64,000 nucleotides of DNA from Syntrophales bacterium (lineage in GTDB: Bacteria > Desulfobacterota > Syntrophia > Syntrophales > UBA2210): contig CAXXKT010000003.1 of the NCBI GenBank assembly GCA_963662405.2, forward strand, positions 352,001 to 416,000. The letters are read 5' to 3'. A program made the position numbers. Of this stretch, positions 20,901 through 26,900 are shown one piece after another; the first letter of the stretch is position 1; the number at the start of each line of letters is the position of its first letter.

Positions 20901-23900
20901 ATTCGTCTCGAAGGTTTATTAGGTGTAATCGTCCCTCCATTGAAGGAGCACATATATATCCGGCATCAGCATCAAAAGCCAGGACTGGGAAGAGATGTAG
21001 AGGGTCTCTTGGGAAGAGAAATCCTTCCATCTCAAATTGGCTAGCACGTGAATCAAGATCCCATATCTTAAGCTTTCCATCGATTCCCAGGCTCGTGACA
21101 ACTCTGTTGCCCAAAGCAACAATAGAGCAGATAGTGCCACGATGGGCATCCAGATCCCCTATTGGACGCTGTTCAGGGATTGAGATAAGACGGATTTTAC
21201 CATTGGCTCCAGCTGACAGAAGTATTTCGTCCGTAAGAAACGTTAAAGATGTTACAGGACAAAGCTGATGGTATATCTCAAAAAGAGGAGGGGTGTTTTC
21301 AGGAAGGCTTTGACTAGGGAAAAGCCAGAGACGAATCATCCCGACTTTCGAACCTGCTGCCAAATATCGTCCGCTTGGGGAAATCGAAAGGGCATAGACG
21401 CCTTTTGTTCTTTTATCACTGAACAGTATGTGACCCGTTTCATTTATACCGATGCTCCGCCAAATACGAAGTTCTCCATCAGCATCCGTTCCAGCTCCCG
21501 TTATCACGCTGTCATAATAAGGAATCATCATTCTTCTTCGAGTATTTCAGTATCAAATGATAATATGTGGGCCTCAGGGTCTACAGAAAGGCGGTAGCTC
21601 CCATCAAACCCAGCTTCTGTCAATAAGGACGCGTCGTATCGCTCATTTATTGTTCCGTCATCAGCACCTGTTCCATATGGTCCGTCATACAAATCAGAAG
21701 AGTCAGAATGTGTATTTCCCACAAGCAAATCTCCGCCGTGACTGTCGGCATTGATTTGTGCAGCCTTTTTCTCTCCCAAAGGAATTTTGCTCAACGTGAT
21801 GGTGAGGTCTGTTGAAACTGCATGGTTATCAGTGGCGGTAGCAAGATCGGAGGGTTGAAGATCCTCTGTGATCCTGTTATTCAGTCTTGGAACCCGGGCA
21901 TTTTCCAAACCGACCAAAAGGGATTTGATGTCAAACCTAGGGTCTCGGTCATAAGTCAAAGGCTGCAAGCTGGTATGAAAAGATGGTTTGAATGGTTGCT
22001 GCGAGGAGGGGGCATCACATTCTTCATCTCTTTGCAGAACCTTATGTATTTGCGTCAAAAGTTCGTTCAGGCGATTCATCTCCGATTCAGCGATCTCAGC
22101 AGCTCGGGTTATTTTTTCATCTGCATGGGGGGTGTTCAGATGGTGCGTATCTAATGCTTGGAGGTTTCTCTCCATGGCTTCCAAAGCCTGCTGTACTTTT
22201 TCTTCAATGGATTCCAGCTCTTTGCACAGGATCAAAATTCTTTCCTGTAAAATATAAATATGAGAATAATCTTCATTGCCTGTCCTGATACTATTCAAAA
22301 GTAATGTTAAGGTGTTGCGGCTGGATGAAATGTCCTGCATGAGGAACCACGCACGGTTCTCAACCTCGCGTAAATCAAAGCTGTTTGATTTGTTATGTTG
22401 GAGGGATTCAGTAGTCAGAGAAAAATTGGGGTCATCTTTTGTCAGATCATCCACAGGATTCTTCCTCTAAAATCCAAACTCGATATTAATTTGTATTAAT
22501 GGTTTTGGGATATTTTTCGATAATAAAACAATTGAGCAATGCACTCGCCTCATATGAAACTTCTTGACGCTTCCGGAAGTGCACCGTTCATTTCATTATA
22601 TAACTCTTGATTTAATTCTTAAATGAGAAATATGAGATATGTCAAGCTCAAATTGAGTATGTTGTTAATTTTTTAATGTTATATAGATGCCGCATGATTG
22701 GGTCTATACAGCTGCCCCGTTCCGTTGATGCTTATTCTATATACATCACAGATAGTTGAAGAGGTCTCTATCTTTCCGCTCTTGAAGACCGTCTTTTCTT
22801 TCCCTGAAATCCTGCATAAGTGATGAAAGACGATTCAGTGAGCGAGAGAATCTGTTTGAAAAGACCCATCCCTCCCGGTAACCATAAAGCTTATTGAATC
22901 GGGAGACGTGGTCGATGATGCCCATCCTCCTCATTTTGCTCCGGACAGTTTCCAGCATACGGGGTGAAAATCCGTACCTATCGCATAAGGGGCTCAGTTC
23001 CGCCAAGAACTCACTGGGGGCGTATTTAAGCTCGATAAATATTGCCAGGAAGATCTTCTGGTGATTTTTATTATTGGGGAACAACAGTGCTGCAATCTCA
23101 TCCAAGCCCTGAGTGCGGGCAATTTTATTGTAGGTAACCTCGATCTTTGTGTTTGACATTTTTCACCCCAGCCTTTTTGATCAAAATATGGCCTTCGAGA
23201 GGGTATAGGCTCTTCTTCACTCTGTTAAAATCTTTTCTCACTTTGATCCCTGTAAACCAGATAAACTGCTGCTTACCGAAAACCCTGCGATTCCATGGCA
23301 GTCCTGCTCAAAAGGGCAGGGGGACCAGTGAATCGTTCCTCTTCCTATGCCTTTCTATAGGACTTACGCAGTCTCGATACCCAAGATTTTAGGAGGGTAA
23401 TTCCCTTTACAATTCAGGACCTGTGGGATTGGTGGCTTTGTCGTTGCTTTCTCGACGACAAAAGGACAAATCGCCTATTTTTTGCTGTTTTTTACGCATC
23501 TCAACCCGTTCCCTGACAATTGCCAGTGCCTGCTGTCGGAGTTGGGTCCCGAACTGACTTTCGATCAGGTAGATCGCCTCATAGGCCGAAACGTATATGT
23601 CATTGAACAGCCGCTGGAACCGCCAGCGGACTCCCTGCCTGGTCATTTTGAAGGAGGTCTCTATCTTATCGCCATAGTTCTGTCTCAATACGAGGCGCTT
23701 ATATCCGGCATCTTTCATATCGACAGCCAGGTCTTTTGCATCGAGCAACAACTTTAATCGTTCCAGGTAATCCTTATCCTTCTGCGTAAGCTTCATCATT
23801 ACATCTCCGTATGAGTAAATCATCGCCGGATTGTTGCAGGACAACCTCGCGATCGTTATCCATGAAGATCAGAGCCGTGAACCGCCGTGCCCTGTCGCAT

Positions 23901-26900
23901 CGGCAGTCCTCGATAAGGGGCGATATGGAGGAGAAAAGAAGGGTGTGGTGACCCAGTACCGCCAGAATATGAGACCGGTAGGCATTGAGATCGAAGTCAC
24001 TCTTCAGATCGAAGAAATCCGTATATGCCGCCATAGGATTTTCGAGGATGAACGCATCCAGGTCTTTGGAGAAATCGGAGAGGATATCCGACTCCGGATT
24101 TTCCATGAGAACCAGTTCCCCGGATCGGGACTCGGCCAGCAGTCTTCTGATGGCTTCTCGTTTCTCTCTGGACCGGTTCCGCGACTCCTGCATCATCTGC
24201 CGGAAATACTCGGCATCAAACAAACGTTCATCGAATATGAATCGCGAGGGGACCGTCTTATGACATGTTGAACAGGAGTAATGAAACGTTTTTCGAACGA
24301 GCGGCGCCTGGCAGCAGGGGCTTGTCTGAAAGGCGACCGTCGGATCGAACACGTGTCCTCCCTGACAGGTGCATTCACTCTGTCCGCTCATGGTGATTCC
24401 CCTGCCGCAGGTTGGACAGGCGTAGTTGGAAAGCATTACCTGAAAATAAAACTCCTTTGCACGTTCTTTATAGGACTCTATATGTTGAAGAATGCCATTG
24501 ATTCTGCGGACAAGAGGGTTTTTGAAGAAGGCATCCTGAGTTGCGGTTCCTTCCGGCACTATGCGTTCGAAAGGTACTTCGCATGTGAGTAACGGGATGC
24601 TTCTTTTTCCAACCGGTATGTCTTCTTCGTTTTCCATGGTGAGCTGTGCATCAGGTAGCTGGATTCAGGTCAAACTCCATCAGAATGACCTGTGTGAGCC
24701 TGTCCGAGATCTCCTTCGGCAGGTTGATCGTGATTTCCTTGGTTCGCCCATATCGGCCATGGGAAAAGACCCGCGCCTGGATGAAGCCGTACATGTCCAA
24801 CTCCGAAACGAGATCGCTGAAGGCTCTTTGGGTCAAGACCCGCAGCTTGATCGTGGAGCAAAACTGACGGTATCCTTCATAGGCGTCACCGGTGTAGACC
24901 GGTTTCGTCGTCCTTGCCGTAAGGAGAATAACGGCAAAAAGGGCGGCCTGGAGCTGCTTGGGGCTGGATTTTATCATCGCCACGTACTTGTCCTTCTCGA
25001 TGTCATCCAGTGCCCGATCGACCAGATCCATGGTAATTTTTGTCCCTTCCTTTTCCGCCATGAGTGCCGACTTTGAAAGAAGCTCCACCGCCTTTCGTGC
25101 ATCGCCATGGGTCCTGCTCGACACGGCAGCGATTTTTTCCAGAACGCCCGCTTCGATCATTTCTTGATTGAGGGCCTTCTGTATGCGCAGCGCAAGGATT
25201 TGTTGTAGATCGTAGGCATTGTAGGGTTTGAAGAATATCTCGTTGATCTTCAGAAAAGACTTGATCCGCGGATCGATGTTCTCCTGCCAGTTAAGTCTGT
25301 TTGAGGTAAATACCAGAATGAGCTTCAACGGCACGGTTTGAGGCAGTCTCTTGGTCAGGAACTTCAGAAAACTGTCGATATCCCTTCTCACATGATCGAC
25401 TTCATCGACAAAGATGATGAAATATCCACGATAGTTTTTCATCTTCTCTTCGATCTTGCCCATGAGTTCGTCCAATGAGATCCCCTTCTTGTAGCGCTTT
25501 GACGCATCCAGGTAGCAGGCGAGATCGTTTAACACCCGAAAGCAGGGTTTTGGTGTCGATAGATCCAGATGTATATACATCATTTCGATCATCTTCTTGT
25601 GGCAGATCGCCTTCAGCATGTTCAGGTAATAGAGCATCGTCACCGTTTTACCGGTGCCCGTTTTTCCATAGAGTGACAGATGGACAGGATGGTCCCCTCT
25701 GAACATGGGTGCGAAATGGGAACTCAGGTCTTCGATTTCGGTGTCTCGAACATCCAGGGCAAAGATCTCCTCCAGCACCTGGAATTGTTCGCTCCGGTCG
25801 AGCTGCTCATCGTCAAGATATCGTCTATCCAGGATGATGGTATTCTTGAGCAGGGACTGAATCTGCTTTTCAATCTTCAAATCGGCTCGCATGGTGGTTC
25901 CACTGGAAATTTACCGGGACATGCGACAGCTTCTGAATAACCACATATTTATATTTTTCGTTTTTTCAGTGTGAGTAATTTTCCAGTGGAGATTGGGGAG
26001 GAAAGATGTGTTGTCCTTTTTTGAAATTCATCGCAATATTTTCTATATAGAAAGTAAATATACATAAAGATATAGATATATACCGATACATACATACCGT
26101 GTTCCATCGGAAATTTACTCTCACTGGGGATGGGACAAAAGTTCAATGAGAGCATGAGAATTCAAACTACTGAAACCATCTGAAAATAGAAAGATTAATA
26201 AACGAAGTATTGTATGGAATGAGGATGGAAGATTTTTACAATATAATTCCCTTTCCGTATCGAACAGAACGAATTGGGAGGATCAGGGATGTCATAACTC
26301 AAATCAGAGCCGATTCTGAACGCTATATGGCGATCAAACAAAAGATTGAAGCGGGTTTCGGCGATGATGCAGATATGGAAGAACTACAGCAGACAAGAGC
26401 ATGGTTACAAAAGGAAAAGTTTACTTACAAACGAATGAATTCTAAGGGTATCGAAGGGATCGCATGTACATTTCATTTATAATACTGATGTGCATTAGAT
26501 TTCCGTATTATATAGGAAACTGTCTATTTAATGTTCTGCTCTGATCTGATGTCTTTTTTGTTCCTCTTGCCTTCAGTATGTCGGTCTGGTATACTTCTGT
26601 AAGAACGACGTTCTTACGGAGGTGTAACATGATTAAACATCTACAGAAGGTCGGGAACAGCAGGGGCATCGTGTTGGACCGGCCCATCTTGAAGCTTCTG
26701 TCTGTACCGCCAGACGGCGCTTTCGAGGTAACGCCTCAGGAGGGCGGACTGTTTCTCAGGCCGATCACAACACAAGAAGCCTACGAGAGGGTATCCAAAA
26801 AGCACCAGAAATCGCTGGACAAGCTTTCCCGATGACAGAAGAGCCCTATTTCATCACCCTTGAAGAGGCCATTCTCTTCCACCGCGAGGAGATAGAACGG

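What a model noticed while it worked through the whole genome (the two positions that open the first line are those of the whole stretch)
22746..26482. Archaeal-type Orc1/Cdc6 initiator with ORB-like origin boxes on a bacterial integrated element
A full-length Orc1/Cdc6 protein (g03405; AAA+, lid and winged-helix domains, 37% identical to Pyrococcus Cdc6) sits in a 113-kb tRNA-Glu-flanked island of this deltaproteobacterial genome, and the 332-bp spacer in front of it holds three 'TCCAnnGGAAAtTTAC' boxes in inverted order around a 17-25% G+C stretch. I read this as a working archaeal-style replicon (initiator plus ORB origin and unwinding element) used by a plasmid-like mobile element of Desulfobacterota. 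If true, an origin-recognition system thought to be confined to archaea and eukaryotes drives replication of a bacterial mobile element, which raises the question of which helicase it loads, as no MCM is present.
Evidence so far: Pfam AAA_22+Cdc6_lid+Cdc6_C and NCBIfam 'orc1/cdc6 family replication initiation protein' (tables); best Swiss-Prot hits Pyrococcus Cdc6 36.7% over 368 aa. Boxes at C3:377899-377914(+), 377975-377990(-), 378103-378118(+), box 3 followed by GGGG 12 nt on; AT-rich core 378013-378090. The loose pattern TCCA-N1-2-GGAAA occurs 115 times in 3.8 Mb (both strands), here 3 times in 220 bp. In 3 of 3 related loci from other MAGs (Deltaproteobacteria, Desulfobacterales, one binned as Balneolales; proteins 69-74% identical) 2-4 of the same boxes lie in inverted order within 211 bp upstream of the orc1 start. 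In a more distant set (one 94%-complete, 8%-contaminated genome with 5 copies, proteins 42% iden [...]
(Added by a program. Inside this text positions count along the whole contig: contig position 352,001 is position 1 of the stretch shown here. "Call 12" and the like, gene names such as g00115 and contig names such as C1 are that model's own, and its searches are not shown. The text may have been shortened before it was handed on; [...] marks where a part breaks off. The agent that wrote the report below was given it as the finding of a first reader that could run no searches.)

Follow-up and report, generated by a model that had tools for sequence, protein, structure and literature searches.

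The report
Archaeal-type Orc1 origin module in bacteria
A mobile island in a sulfate-reducer-type bacterium carries an intact archaeal-style replication initiator gene (Orc1/Cdc6) next to its own binding boxes and an AT-rich stretch, a layout kept in dozens of related bacterial elements, which suggests an archaeal kind of replication origin working without the archaeal helicase.

Summary
Window 24651-25892(-) encodes a 413-aa Orc1/Cdc6 with AAA+, lid and winged-helix domains. It scores above the TIGR02928 cut-off, and its best solved relatives are Sulfolobus Orc1-1 and Aeropyrum ORC1. The three 16-bp boxes are the only three matches in the 3.8-Mb genome.

New here:
- The box layout is conserved: box C, then a ~111-bp tract of 76% AT, then box B inverted, then a ~70-bp gap, then box A beside the start codon. 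It occurs in 39 of 47 distinct upstream regions from Desulfobacterota-type and Verrucomicrobiota/Lentisphaerota-group (PVC) bacteria, although synonymous sites are saturated. A clade only 42% identical keeps it too.
- A 14-bp palindrome (TTTCTATATAGAAA) sits mid-tract in 37 of 39 closer relatives.
- No MCM was found in this or five other host genomes. The host has DnaA and DnaB.
- No helicase travels consistently with orc1.

Best reading (0.6): a self-regulated initiator-plus-origin module of an integrated plasmid-like or conjugative element that must use a non-MCM helicase. Replication itself is not shown: I found no circular contigs, no GC-skew signal and no informative reads.

This scan has noted the same kind of module in at least 12 other genomes. 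My paper searches found no description of it.

The parts
24651..25892 (-). orc1/cdc6 gene, 413 aa. Walker A GKTGTGKT (residues 76-83), Walker B DEVD (163-166), sensor-2 GDARKA (263-268), and a winged-helix wing HGRYGRTKEI.
   Evidence: motif residues invariant in 23 homologues; aligned over residues 47-396 to Sulfolobus Orc1-1, 2qby_A, E 2e-55; dN/dS about 0.02-0.03.
25899..25914 (+). Box A (TCCACTGGAAATTTAC). It is the box nearest the gene. It reads on the strand opposite to orc1, and its core ends 6 nt before the ATG, over the ribosome-binding region.
   Evidence: found in 44 of 47 distinct upstream regions.
25948..25953 (-). A -10-like TATAAA on the orc1 strand, inside the conserved stretch AAAcCGAAAAataTAaATA between boxes B and A. 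I read it as the orc1 promoter.
   Evidence: Conserved columns in the alignment of 37 upstream regions. The consensus promoter scan did not flag it. Inference only.
25963..25990 (-). Box B with its outer arm (TCCACTGGAAAATTACTCACACTG). It reads on the orc1 strand and points towards the gene.
   Evidence: found in 40 of 47 regions. The B-to-A gap is 68-71 bp in the closer clade.
25991..26102 (.). AT-rich tract between the inverted boxes B and C: 112 bp, 70.5% AT here, and 23% G+C over 26013-26090. Candidate unwinding element.
   Evidence: median 111 bp and 76% AT in 39 loci.
26040..26053 (.). Perfect 14-bp palindrome TTTCTATATAGAAA near the middle of the AT tract, 49 bp from each flanking box here.
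   Evidence: found in 37 of 39 regions of the clade at 67% identity or more and in 0 of 8 PVC-type regions, with 4 hits in 444 kb elsewhere in the loci. It is the only exact copy in the genome.
26103..26129 (+). Box C with its outer arm (TCCATCGGAAATTTACTCTCACTGGGG). It is inverted relative to box B, and its outer arm points away from the AT tract.
   Evidence: found in 40 of 47 regions. The arm TTTACTCTCACTG is conserved; the terminal GGGG is not.
23774..24637 (-). 287-aa double zinc-ribbon protein with a C-terminal winged-helix domain. Its start lies 13 nt after the orc1 stop. It is a frequent but not universal companion of orc1.
   Evidence: family found in 22 of 63 related loci, plus 2 loci of the 42%-identity clade. 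Model pLDDT 69; best fold matches are ScpA/kleisin C-terminal winged helices, at only E 0.02.
23407..23844 (-). 145-aa protein of unknown family. It follows the zinc-ribbon gene in many relatives.
22746..23159 (-). 137-aa protein of unknown family. It is the third gene of the conserved downstream set.
29116..31811 (+). Cas4-like PD-(D/E)XK nuclease (29116-29871) followed by a 647-aa HerA/FtsK-type ATPase (29868-31811). The pair points away from orc1 across the origin region. It is part of the element backbone and a candidate DNA motor.
   Evidence: A HerA-type ATPase lies within 10 kb of orc1 in 9 of 22 larger loci, in both the Desulfobacterota-type and PVC-type clades.
35998..36846 (+). ArdC-like protein (the ssDNA-binding antirestriction type found on conjugative plasmids). 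Backbone gene.
   Evidence: present in 8 of 22 loci.
9363..9941 (+). 192-aa protein of unknown family. It is kept near orc1 even in the smallest related island (L003).
   Evidence: no informative match in the ESM Atlas.
5595..8202 (+). ParA (5595-6353), ParB (6179-7219) and a Replic_Relax protein (7276-8202): a plasmid-type partition and relaxase-like set at the low-G+C edge of the backbone.
   Evidence: ParA also lies within 5 kb of orc1 in 5 of 63 related loci, and in L001 the frame that holds it begins 4 nt before the end of the orc1 match.

Best explanation
The gene and its 317-bp upstream spacer form a self-contained initiator-plus-origin module of archaeal oriC1 type. An integrated, plasmid-like and probably conjugative element of anaerobic bacteria carries it.

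Proposed mechanism:
1. Orc1 monomers bind boxes C and B. These lie in inverted orientation, with their dyad cores facing a ~110-bp AT-rich tract.
2. ATP-bound Orc1 distorts the DNA there and recruits a hexameric helicase.
3. A third box (A) over the ribosome-binding region, and the arm of box B over a -35-like position, let Orc1 shut off its own gene.
4. A central palindrome probably binds a further dimeric factor.
5. Because no MCM exists in these hosts and no helicase gene travels consistently with orc1, the helicase is most likely the host's DnaB.

Shown: protein family and class, intact motifs, purifying selection, the conserved box layout, uniqueness of the site in the genome, the mobile-element context, absence of MCM.

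Inferred: DNA binding at the boxes, unwinding, autoregulation, helicase identity, and that replication happens at all.
For: Protein:
- It has three Orc1/Cdc6 domains and scores over the TIGR02928 cut-off.
- The best solved relatives are the ORB-binding initiators Sulfolobus Orc1-1 (2e-55) and Aeropyrum ORC1 (1e-51). These score far better than Orc1-3 (7e-36) or Pyrobaculum Cdc6 (2e-14).
- Walker A, Walker B, sensor-2 and wing residues are invariant in 23 homologues.
- dN/dS is 0.02-0.03 in the 6 closest pairs, where dS is already 2.3-3.1.

Site:
- The strict box occurs 3 of 3 times here, and this is the only cluster of cores in 3.8 Mb.
- Core density is 12.4 per kb in the 400 bp upstream of orc1 in 56 loci, against 0.46 per kb in the remaining 492 kb.
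- All three boxes occur in the same order and orientation in 39 of 47 distinct upstream regions, and in 5 of 6 loci of a clade only 42% identical.
- The interval between boxes C and B is 76% AT at the median.
- The layout matches the description of Sulfolobus oriC1: three ORBs, with ORB2 and ORB3 inverted around an AT-rich unwinding element, a motif midway, and the orc1-1 gene adjacent (PMC12141716, passages).
- Box C reads TTCCA-NN-GGAAAT..ACTCT, like the Pyrococcus furiosus ORB oligonucleotides printed in PMC1904270 (passages).

Context:
- ParA, ParB, Replic_Relax, ArdC-like and HerA/FtsK-type genes sit on a low-G+C backbone inside a 113-kb island bracketed by tRNA-Glu repeats, with an integrase at the tRNA end.
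- ParA lies beside orc1 in some relatives.
- The family is rare and patchy in the phylum, in 6 of 401 genomes, as expected of a mobile gene.
- Genes on either side of the spacer point away from it.
Against: - There is no direct sign of replication. None of 66 related loci is a circular contig. There is no close relative in 72,556 plasmid records (all hits below 31% identity, and all 40 listed are archaeal) or in phage records. There is none in IMG/VR.
- Cumulative GC skew of contig C3 has no extremum at the locus. The local AT-skew flip only follows gene orientation.
- The laid runs were low-depth metagenome contigs with no joints.
- No cognate helicase was found. MCM is absent, and no DnaB or other replicative helicase lies within 10 kb in 8 larger loci.
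- The G-run of archaeal ORBs is not conserved.
- Boxes A and B overlap expression signals, so a purely regulatory role would also explain two of the three boxes.
- In L003 orc1 sits in a roughly 5-kb remnant between metabolic genes. It can therefore persist where no obvious element remains to be replicated.
Confidence: 0.6

Rival explanations
1. Orc1 here is an autoregulated, sequence-specific DNA-binding ATPase that works only as a transcription switch for the divergent operons of the element. That would resemble the non-initiator Orc1-2 of Sulfolobus. The boxes are operators, not an origin.
For: - Box A lies 6 nt before the ATG, and box B's arm overlaps a -35-like position. The fixed ~70-bp gap between B and A holds a conserved -10-like TATAAA.
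- Operons diverge from the spacer.
- No helicase partner was found.
- A non-initiator Orc1 paralogue is known in archaea (PMC9738581, search listing and abstract only).
Against: - The protein is closest to the Orc1-1/ORC1 initiators, not to other paralogues.
- There is only one clustered target in the genome.
- Box C lies 110 bp further out, across a tract whose AT-richness and length are conserved but whose sequence is not. An operator does not need that.
- The divergent small ORF at 26210-26482 is not conserved, so there is no conserved second promoter to control.
Confidence: 0.2
2. Orc1 and the boxes act in partition or in organising the element's DNA. Orc1 would be a centromere-binding or loading protein working with ParA, or with an SMC/kleisin-like partner.
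For: - ParA lies within 5 kb of orc1 in 5 of 63 loci, and in L001 the frame that holds it begins 4 nt before the end of the orc1 match.
- The downstream zinc-ribbon protein has a C-terminal winged helix whose best fold matches are ScpA/kleisin C-terminal domains. The ESM Atlas gives weak ScpA-like rows.
Against: - ParA is absent near most copies, and ParB is present separately here.
- The fold matches are weak (E 0.02) and winged helices are generic.
- Three sites around an AT tract do not resemble known centromere repeat arrays (this comparison is recalled, not tested).
Confidence: 0.07
3. The Orc1-like protein is a defence or conflict protein of the island, for example a sensor that binds foreign DNA.
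For: - The neighbours at window 10876-21531 are defence-like: E1, E2, JAB, a protein kinase, WD40 and a HerA-like ATPase.
- AEP-TOTE 'conflict system' primase domains lie at both ends of the island and near orc1 in 3 relatives.
Against: - Orc1 has no PADLOC family match; the best is 15 bits.
- The defence-like genes are not conserved with orc1.
- The conserved partner of orc1 is its own upstream DNA.
Confidence: 0.05
4. Assembly or binning artefact: an archaeal fragment wrongly joined to bacterial DNA.
For: Within the phylum sample, one hit (G007, 395 bits) lies on a 1.5-kb contig and could be contamination.
Against: - The locus lies inside a 564-kb contig.
- A 31,959-bp contig of run X1 covers window 16001-36000 with 0 differences, and a 27,771-bp contig of X2 covers 16001-34474. 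These runs may be the source of the assembly.
- Relatives sit in contigs of up to 708 kb labelled as Desulfobacterota, Verrucomicrobiota, Kiritimatiellae and Lentisphaerae.
Confidence: 0.01

Closest known systems
Archaeal oriC1-type replicator-initiator pair (Sulfolobus oriC1 with Orc1-1; Pyrococcus oriC with Cdc6/Orc1; Aeropyrum ORC1 with ORB)
   Same: - The initiator is of the same class (best PDB matches 2qby_A and 2v1u_A).
- There are three boxes with the TCCA-NN-GGAAA dyad core.
- Two boxes are inverted around an AT-rich tract of about 110-130 bp, and a conserved motif lies near its middle.
- The initiator gene is adjacent (PMC12141716 and PMC1904270, passages).
   Different: - The host is bacterial and has no MCM.
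- The G-run of the long ORB is replaced by a conserved TTACTCnCACTG arm.
- The central motif is a 14-bp palindrome unrelated to any archaeal factor I could identify.
- The element is integrated and mobile.
- Whether box polarity relative to the AT tract matches the archaeal case was not tested.
Bacterial iteron plasmids (Rep initiators of the pPS10, RK2 or R6K type)
   Same: - The logic is the same: an element-encoded initiator binds repeats beside an AT-rich region and represses its own gene through a site at its promoter.
- Such initiators depend on host DnaB.

The workings of these plasmids are recalled from established knowledge. PMC8034659 was seen in search listings only.
   Different: - The initiator here is an AAA+ Orc1/Cdc6, not a winged-helix Rep.
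- The repeats are inverted 26-bp ORB-like boxes, not direct iterons.
- No DnaA boxes were identified.
Orc1/Cdc6-replicated archaeal plasmids and minichromosomes (haloarchaea, methanogens)
   Same: An orc1 gene on an accessory replicon. 441 PLSDB records match the protein, and all 40 listed are archaeal.
   Different: All are below 31% identity to this protein. The one I inspected (Methanohalobium pMETEV01) has no TCCA-NN-GGAAA box in the 598 bp upstream of its orc1.
MCM-primase genes in bacterial prophages
   Different: That case brings the helicase without ORC. This one brings the ORC-type initiator and its origin without the helicase.

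Membership tests
Orc1/Cdc6 family (NCBIfam TIGR02928; Pfam Cdc6_C + Cdc6_lid + AAA+) | Three-domain architecture and a score above the curated family cut-off | tested here: met
   (Cdc6_C 84.8 bits, Cdc6_lid 55 bits, AAA_22 35.8 bits). (TIGR02928 260.7 bits against 181.3). The narrower equivalog models were not reached (NF001625 270 bits against 501).
Orc1/Cdc6 family (NCBIfam TIGR02928; Pfam Cdc6_C + Cdc6_lid + AAA+) | Intact ATPase motifs (Walker A, Walker B, sensor 2) and a winged-helix wing | tested here: met
   GKTGTGKT, DEVD, GDARKA and HGRYGRTKEI align with the matching motifs of 2qby_A and 2v1u_A. They are invariant in 23 homologues.
Orc1/Cdc6 family (NCBIfam TIGR02928; Pfam Cdc6_C + Cdc6_lid + AAA+) | Works with an MCM helicase in the same cell | tested here: not met
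   The Pfam MCM model gives only partial matches of 29.5 bits or less in G000, and 31.4 bits or less in 5 other host genomes. E. coli and the other bacterial controls give the same kind of cross-hit.
Orc1/Cdc6 family (NCBIfam TIGR02928; Pfam Cdc6_C + Cdc6_lid + AAA+) | Sequence-specific binding to ORB DNA and ATP-dependent origin activity | not testable with these tools
   Needs EMSA or footprinting and a replication assay.
Archaeal oriC1-type origin (ORB - unwinding element - ORB next to orc1) | Repeated boxes with the mini-ORB dyad core, clustered beside the initiator gene | tested here: met
Archaeal oriC1-type origin (ORB - unwinding element - ORB next to orc1) | Two boxes in inverted orientation flanking an AT-rich tract | tested here: met
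   39 of 47 regions; median tract 111 bp and 76% AT.
Archaeal oriC1-type origin (ORB - unwinding element - ORB next to orc1) | G-run (G-string) at the outer end of the long ORB | tested here: not met
   Only box C of this window ends in GGGG. The family consensus ends in CACTG followed by variable bases.
Archaeal oriC1-type origin (ORB - unwinding element - ORB next to orc1) | Demonstrated initiation (marker frequency, initiation-point mapping, autonomous replication) | not testable with these tools
   Indirect looks were blank: no circular contigs, no skew extremum, and only low-depth contigs to lay.
Iteron-type bacterial plasmid replicon | Winged-helix Rep initiator and directly repeated iterons | tested here: not met
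   The initiator is AAA+ Orc1/Cdc6. The boxes are inverted, not direct.
Non-initiator Orc1 paralogue acting as a global regulator (Orc1-2 type) | Many promoter targets across the genome | tested here: not met
   A single cluster of box cores in 3.8 Mb. This rests on sequence only, not on binding data.
Known anti-phage defence families (PADLOC-DB) | Match to a defence protein model | tested here: not met
   The best match is Avs1b at 15.3 bits, E 6e-4, over 62 residues.

The most novel reading that the evidence does not exclude
An archaeal-type origin recognition system works as a real replication origin in bacteria and loads a bacterial-type helicase. The most likely candidate is host DnaB; the alternative is the element's HerA/FtsK-type motor. 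Orc1 would then be an initiator that has switched helicase families across domains of life, and the family-specific central palindrome would mark an added bacterial co-factor.
Probability: 0.35. Interest if true: 0.9.

Novelty: new variant of a known kind. Interest (0 to 1): 0.77.

Why it matters
Orc1/Cdc6 with ORB origins is treated as a hallmark of archaeal (and, in derived form, eukaryotic) replication, while DnaA with DnaB is the bacterial hallmark. Some pipelines even use TIGR02928 as an 'archaeal chromosome' marker (bioRxiv 10.64898/2026.05.20.726742, passages).

A widespread, strongly conserved Orc1-plus-ORB module on mobile elements of Desulfobacterota and PVC bacteria that lack MCM would mean one of two things. 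Either the initiator can hand DNA to a helicase of an unrelated family, or an initiator and its origin have been kept intact for a non-replicative job. Either answer bears on how initiator-helicase pairing evolved.

The module is small (1.6 kb), so the question can be tested directly with a plasmid assay. It could also give a new replicon for genetic tools in poorly tractable anaerobes.

Tried and rejected
- Complex prediction of Orc1 with the host DnaB (alignments A1 and A3): no verdict (score 0.00). This is not evidence either way.
- Sequencing runs: no RNA holder listed. Laying X1, X2, X3 and X8 on window 16001-36000 gave only Logan contigs from low-depth metagenomes (word depth 8, 4 and 3). 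There were no joints and no variants. X3's partial cover reflects low depth, and X8 had nothing laid. This says nothing about expression, excision or copy number.
- Circularity of 66 related loci: none. Most are short fragments.
- IMG/VR scan and phage records: no relative.
- PLSDB: only distant hits, and all 40 listed are archaeal.
- GC and AT skew: no origin signal that can be separated from gene orientation.
- Consensus promoter scan: nothing flagged on the orc1 strand.
- Internal att remnants of tRNA-Glu inside the island: none. I could not split the 113 kb into separate elements.
- ESM Atlas for the 192-aa and 287-aa proteins: only the proteins' own families and weak leads.
- Foldseek on the 287-aa model: no match at E 0.001 or better.
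- Naming the nearest non-family relatives: only 2 of 10 clusters carried organism names (Acidilobus, Micrarchaeota; 33-34% identity). A labelled phylogeny placing the bacterial clade among archaeal Orc1 was therefore not built.
- An archaeal comparator origin (Methanohalobium plasmid) has no such boxes. The polarity comparison with archaeal origins remains open.
- Papers: the Samson et al. 2016 paper on MCM recruitment is not held, so the MCM-recruitment motif could not be checked in this protein. Searches found no paper describing a bacterial Orc1/Cdc6 with ORB boxes. Subscription journals are largely outside that library.

Full report
**What is there**

Window 24651-25892 on the minus strand is a 413-codon ORF. 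Pfam finds the C-terminal Cdc6 winged helix (E 4e-24), the Cdc6 lid (8e-15) and an AAA+ core. NCBIfam TIGR02928, 'orc1/cdc6 family replication initiation protein', scores 260.7 bits against a cut-off of 181.3. The narrower equivalog models are not reached.

Among solved structures the best matches are Sulfolobus Orc1-1 (2qby_A, E 2e-55, query residues 47-396) and Aeropyrum ORC1 (2v1u_A, 1e-51). Orc1-3 (7e-36) and Pyrobaculum Cdc6 (2e-14) come well behind. Both top matches were crystallised as origin-bound initiators; that is recalled knowledge.

Walker A (GKTGTGKT), Walker B (DEVD), sensor 2 (GDARKA) and the wing (HGRYGRTKEI) align with the archaeal motifs. They are invariant in 23 homologues.

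**The boxes**

No other place in the genome holds two or more exact 11-bp cores within 400 bp. The stretch 26013-26090 is 23% G+C.

**Relatives**

- The protein search found 991 proteins at E 1e-10 or better. The best 120 are 69-97% identical, and the few that carry names are labelled Syntrophales or Thermodesulfobacteriota.
- A scan of species-representative genomes gave 13 full-length loci. Six are Desulfobacterota-type (67-74% identity), one of them binned as Balneolales. Seven come from Verrucomicrobiota, Kiritimatiellae, Lentisphaerae, Victivallales and a Pontiellaceae isolate scaffold of 708 kb (51-57% identity).
- A metagenome scan added 51 loci.
- In a sample of 401 genomes of the window's phylum, 6 have a match and 4 exceed the cut-off, the window's genome included. 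The one other genome of the same genus that was searched has none. This is the patchy spread of a mobile gene.

**Conservation of the site**

Across 56 loci, the core TCCA-NN-GGAAA (up to 1 mismatch, both strands) occurs 268 times in 21.6 kb of sequence within 400 bp upstream of orc1. It occurs 228 times in the other 492 kb. That is 12.4 against 0.46 per kb.

Of 47 distinct upstream regions of at least 330 bp, 39 carry all three boxes in the same order and orientation:
- Box C lies at about -210 to -250 on the strand opposite to orc1.
- Box B lies at about -97 on the orc1 strand.
- Box A lies at about -17 on the opposite strand.

The consensus sequences are tTTCCAtcGGAAATTTACTCTCACTG (C), TCCActGGAAAatTACTCcCACTG (B) and TCCA.tGGAAATTTACCgAG (A). 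The C-to-B interval has a median of 111 bp and 76% AT. The B-to-A interval is 68-71 bp in the closer clade, and 92-93 bp in three of the four PVC-type loci measured (75 bp in the fourth). Five of six loci of a clade only 42% identical (genomes G067 and G306) keep the same three-box plan.

This conservation is not inherited similarity. Even between orc1 genes 88% identical in protein, synonymous sites are saturated (dS 2.3-3.1), with dN/dS of 0.02-0.03. NG86 gave a dS for only 8 of 39 pairs, and the rest were beyond saturation.

The GGGG that follows box C in this window is not conserved.

**A further element**

An alignment of 37 upstream regions shows one more conserved block in the AT tract. 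It is the perfect palindrome TTTCTATATAGAAA at window 26040-26053.
- It is present, with up to one mismatch, in 37 of 39 regions of the clade at 67% identity or more, and in 0 of 8 PVC-type regions. There are 4 hits in 444 kb elsewhere in the same loci.
- The copy here is the only exact one in the genome.
- It lies 49 bp from each flanking box here, and mostly 39-53 bp from each in relatives. The distance to box B is the steadier of the two.

The same alignment shows a conserved AAAcCGAAAAataTAaATA between boxes B and A, which contains a -10-like TATAAA. Box B's arm would then lie at a -35 position, and box A's core ends 6 nt before the ATG. I infer autoregulation from this. The consensus promoter scan did not flag a promoter there.

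**Comparison with archaeal origins**

Passages of PMC12141716 describe Sulfolobus oriC1 as follows: three ORBs, each binding an Orc1-1 monomer with defined polarity; ORB2 and ORB3 inverted around an AT-rich unwinding element (130 bp in all); an essential motif midway that binds a separate protein; and ATP-bound Orc1-1 sufficient to recruit MCM.

Passages of PMC1904270 print Pyrococcus furiosus ORB oligonucleotides. Their shared core, read on the other strand, is TTCCAGTGGAAAT, followed after three bases by ACTCT and a G-run. Box C here reads TTCCATCGGAAAT, then two bases, then ACTCT.

The plan and the recognition core are therefore those of oriC1-type origins, while the outer arm differs. Here the dyad cores face the AT tract and the arms point outwards. 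I could not establish whether archaeal ORBs have the same polarity.

**Context**

- A 45-bp repeat of the 3' half of tRNA-Glu (1 mismatch) brackets 113 kb (C3:323968-437091). An integrase lies next to the tRNA. No internal att remnants were found.
- The island holds second copies of groES and groEL (74% and 80% identical to the copies on C1) and a further FtsH-type AAA+ protease gene (L077:12244-14139), as well as a gas-vesicle cluster and signalling genes.
- Synteny with relatives shows that the orc1 backbone is smaller, roughly window 5.5-37 kb. It comprises ParA, ParB, Replic_Relax, a 192-aa protein, then a defence-like insert (E1, E2, JAB, kinase, WD40 and a 959-aa HerA-like ATPase), then a 137-aa protein, a 145-aa protein, the 287-aa zinc-ribbon protein, orc1, the origin region, phd/doc, a Cas4-like nuclease with a 647-aa HerA/FtsK-type ATPase, and an ArdC-like protein.
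- Genes recurring near orc1 in other loci are HerA/FtsK-type ATPases (9 of 22 larger loci, both clades), ArdC/SprT-like proteins, SSB, ParA, an AEP-TOTE primase domain and a methylase-like protein.
- The zinc-ribbon protein family accompanies orc1 in 22 of 63 loci, and in 2 loci of the 42%-identity clade. Its model (pLDDT 69) ends in a winged helix whose best fold matches are ScpA/kleisin C-terminal domains, at only E 0.02.
- No partner gene is universal. The only constant unit is orc1 plus its boxes.

**The helicase question**

The Pfam MCM model finds only partial matches of 29.5 bits or less in this genome and 31.4 bits or less in five other host genomes. It gives the same kind of cross-hit in E. 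coli and every other bacterial control. The host has dnaA at C1:991994, exactly where the cumulative GC skew of C1 reaches its minimum. It has one full dnaB, and all five other hosts also have dnaB. No DnaB, MCM or other replicative helicase lies within 10 kb of orc1 in eight larger loci.

The parsimonious inference is use of host DnaB, as bacterial plasmid initiators do (recalled). The HerA/FtsK-type ATPase is an alternative. It looks more like a conjugative DNA translocase, given weak TrwB, CedD and VirB4 similarities.

**What is missing**

Nothing shows replication.
- There are no circular contigs among 66 loci.
- There are no relatives in phage or IMG/VR collections.
- Plasmid records give only distant hits, and all 40 listed are archaeal.
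- There is no skew extremum at the locus on C3.
- The runs that hold the locus are low-depth metagenome contigs without joints. They do confirm contiguity of orc1 with its bacterial flanks, though they may be the assembly's own source.
- In L003 orc1 persists in a roughly 5-kb remnant between metabolic genes.

**Verdict**

The best reading is a self-regulated Orc1-plus-origin module of an integrated plasmid-like or conjugative element (confidence 0.6). The main rival is a purely regulatory Orc1 (0.2).

Orc1 has no defence-family match, and there is one clustered target in the genome. Both argue against the defence and global-regulator readings.

Earlier notes of this scan describe the same kind of module in at least 12 other genomes. 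They are not independent evidence. Paper searches found no description of it, with the caveat that subscription journals are largely outside the library.

Noticed in passing
window 10876-21531 (- strand): A run of defence-like genes sits inside the orc1 backbone: a 959-aa HerA-like ATPase, a ThiF-type E1, a double zinc-ribbon protein, an E2-like protein, a JAB peptidase, a Ser/Thr kinase with Sel1 repeats and a WD40 protein. Together they look like a ubiquitin-like conjugation system. They are not conserved with orc1 in relatives.
   Followed up: partly
L077:2435-5360 (C3:324435-327360, outside the window): At the left end of the island, an AEP-TOTE primase fused to an SF2 helicase appears to be split by an IS200-type transposase gene: the Helicase_C part is on one side and the AEP+ResIII/DEAD part on the other. 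A second AEP-TOTE protein and an E2-E1-JAB fusion lie at the right end (L079:11574-13961 and L079:18609-19631).
   Followed up: partly
window 26578-27233 (+): A small gene followed by a Fic/Doc-family gene lies right beside the origin region. It is probably a phd/doc-type addiction pair, which would fit plasmid-like maintenance.
   Followed up: no
window 46848-62068 (+): A gas-vesicle cluster (three GvpF/L, GvpG, GvpK, a GvpA-type protein, a GvpN-like AAA_5 ATPase, ArsA and Hsp20) lies inside the tRNA-Glu-bracketed island. It includes a Cdc48-type double AAA+ ATPase with a CDC48_N domain. The Cdc48-type ATPase and the GvpA-type gene, the only two genes of the cluster that I searched, have no full-length second copy in the genome.
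   Followed up: partly
window 962-2907 (+) and L077:12244-14139: The island carries second copies of groES and groEL (74% and 80% identical to the copies on contig C1) and a further FtsH-type AAA+ protease gene, so it holds stress-protein cargo.
   Followed up: partly
window 23774-24637 (-): The 287-aa double zinc-ribbon protein downstream of orc1 has a C-terminal winged helix whose best structural matches are kleisin (ScpA, Scc1, Brn1) C-terminal domains. The ESM Atlas shows a related 395-member cluster in Planctomycetota. Both leads are weak, but two methods agree.
   Followed up: partly
L044:6790-8115 and L048:8377-9825: Group II intron reverse transcriptases are inserted within a few kb upstream of orc1 in two related elements. 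IS66 and IS21 elements lie nearby.
   Followed up: no
L002:7264-7641, L044:8884-9267, L045:4044-4475: A conserved protein of about 125 aa, of unknown family, is transcribed away from orc1 about 1 kb upstream of it in 5 related loci, and lies downstream in 2 more. This window has a different, unconserved 90-aa ORF in that position (26210-26482).
   Followed up: partly
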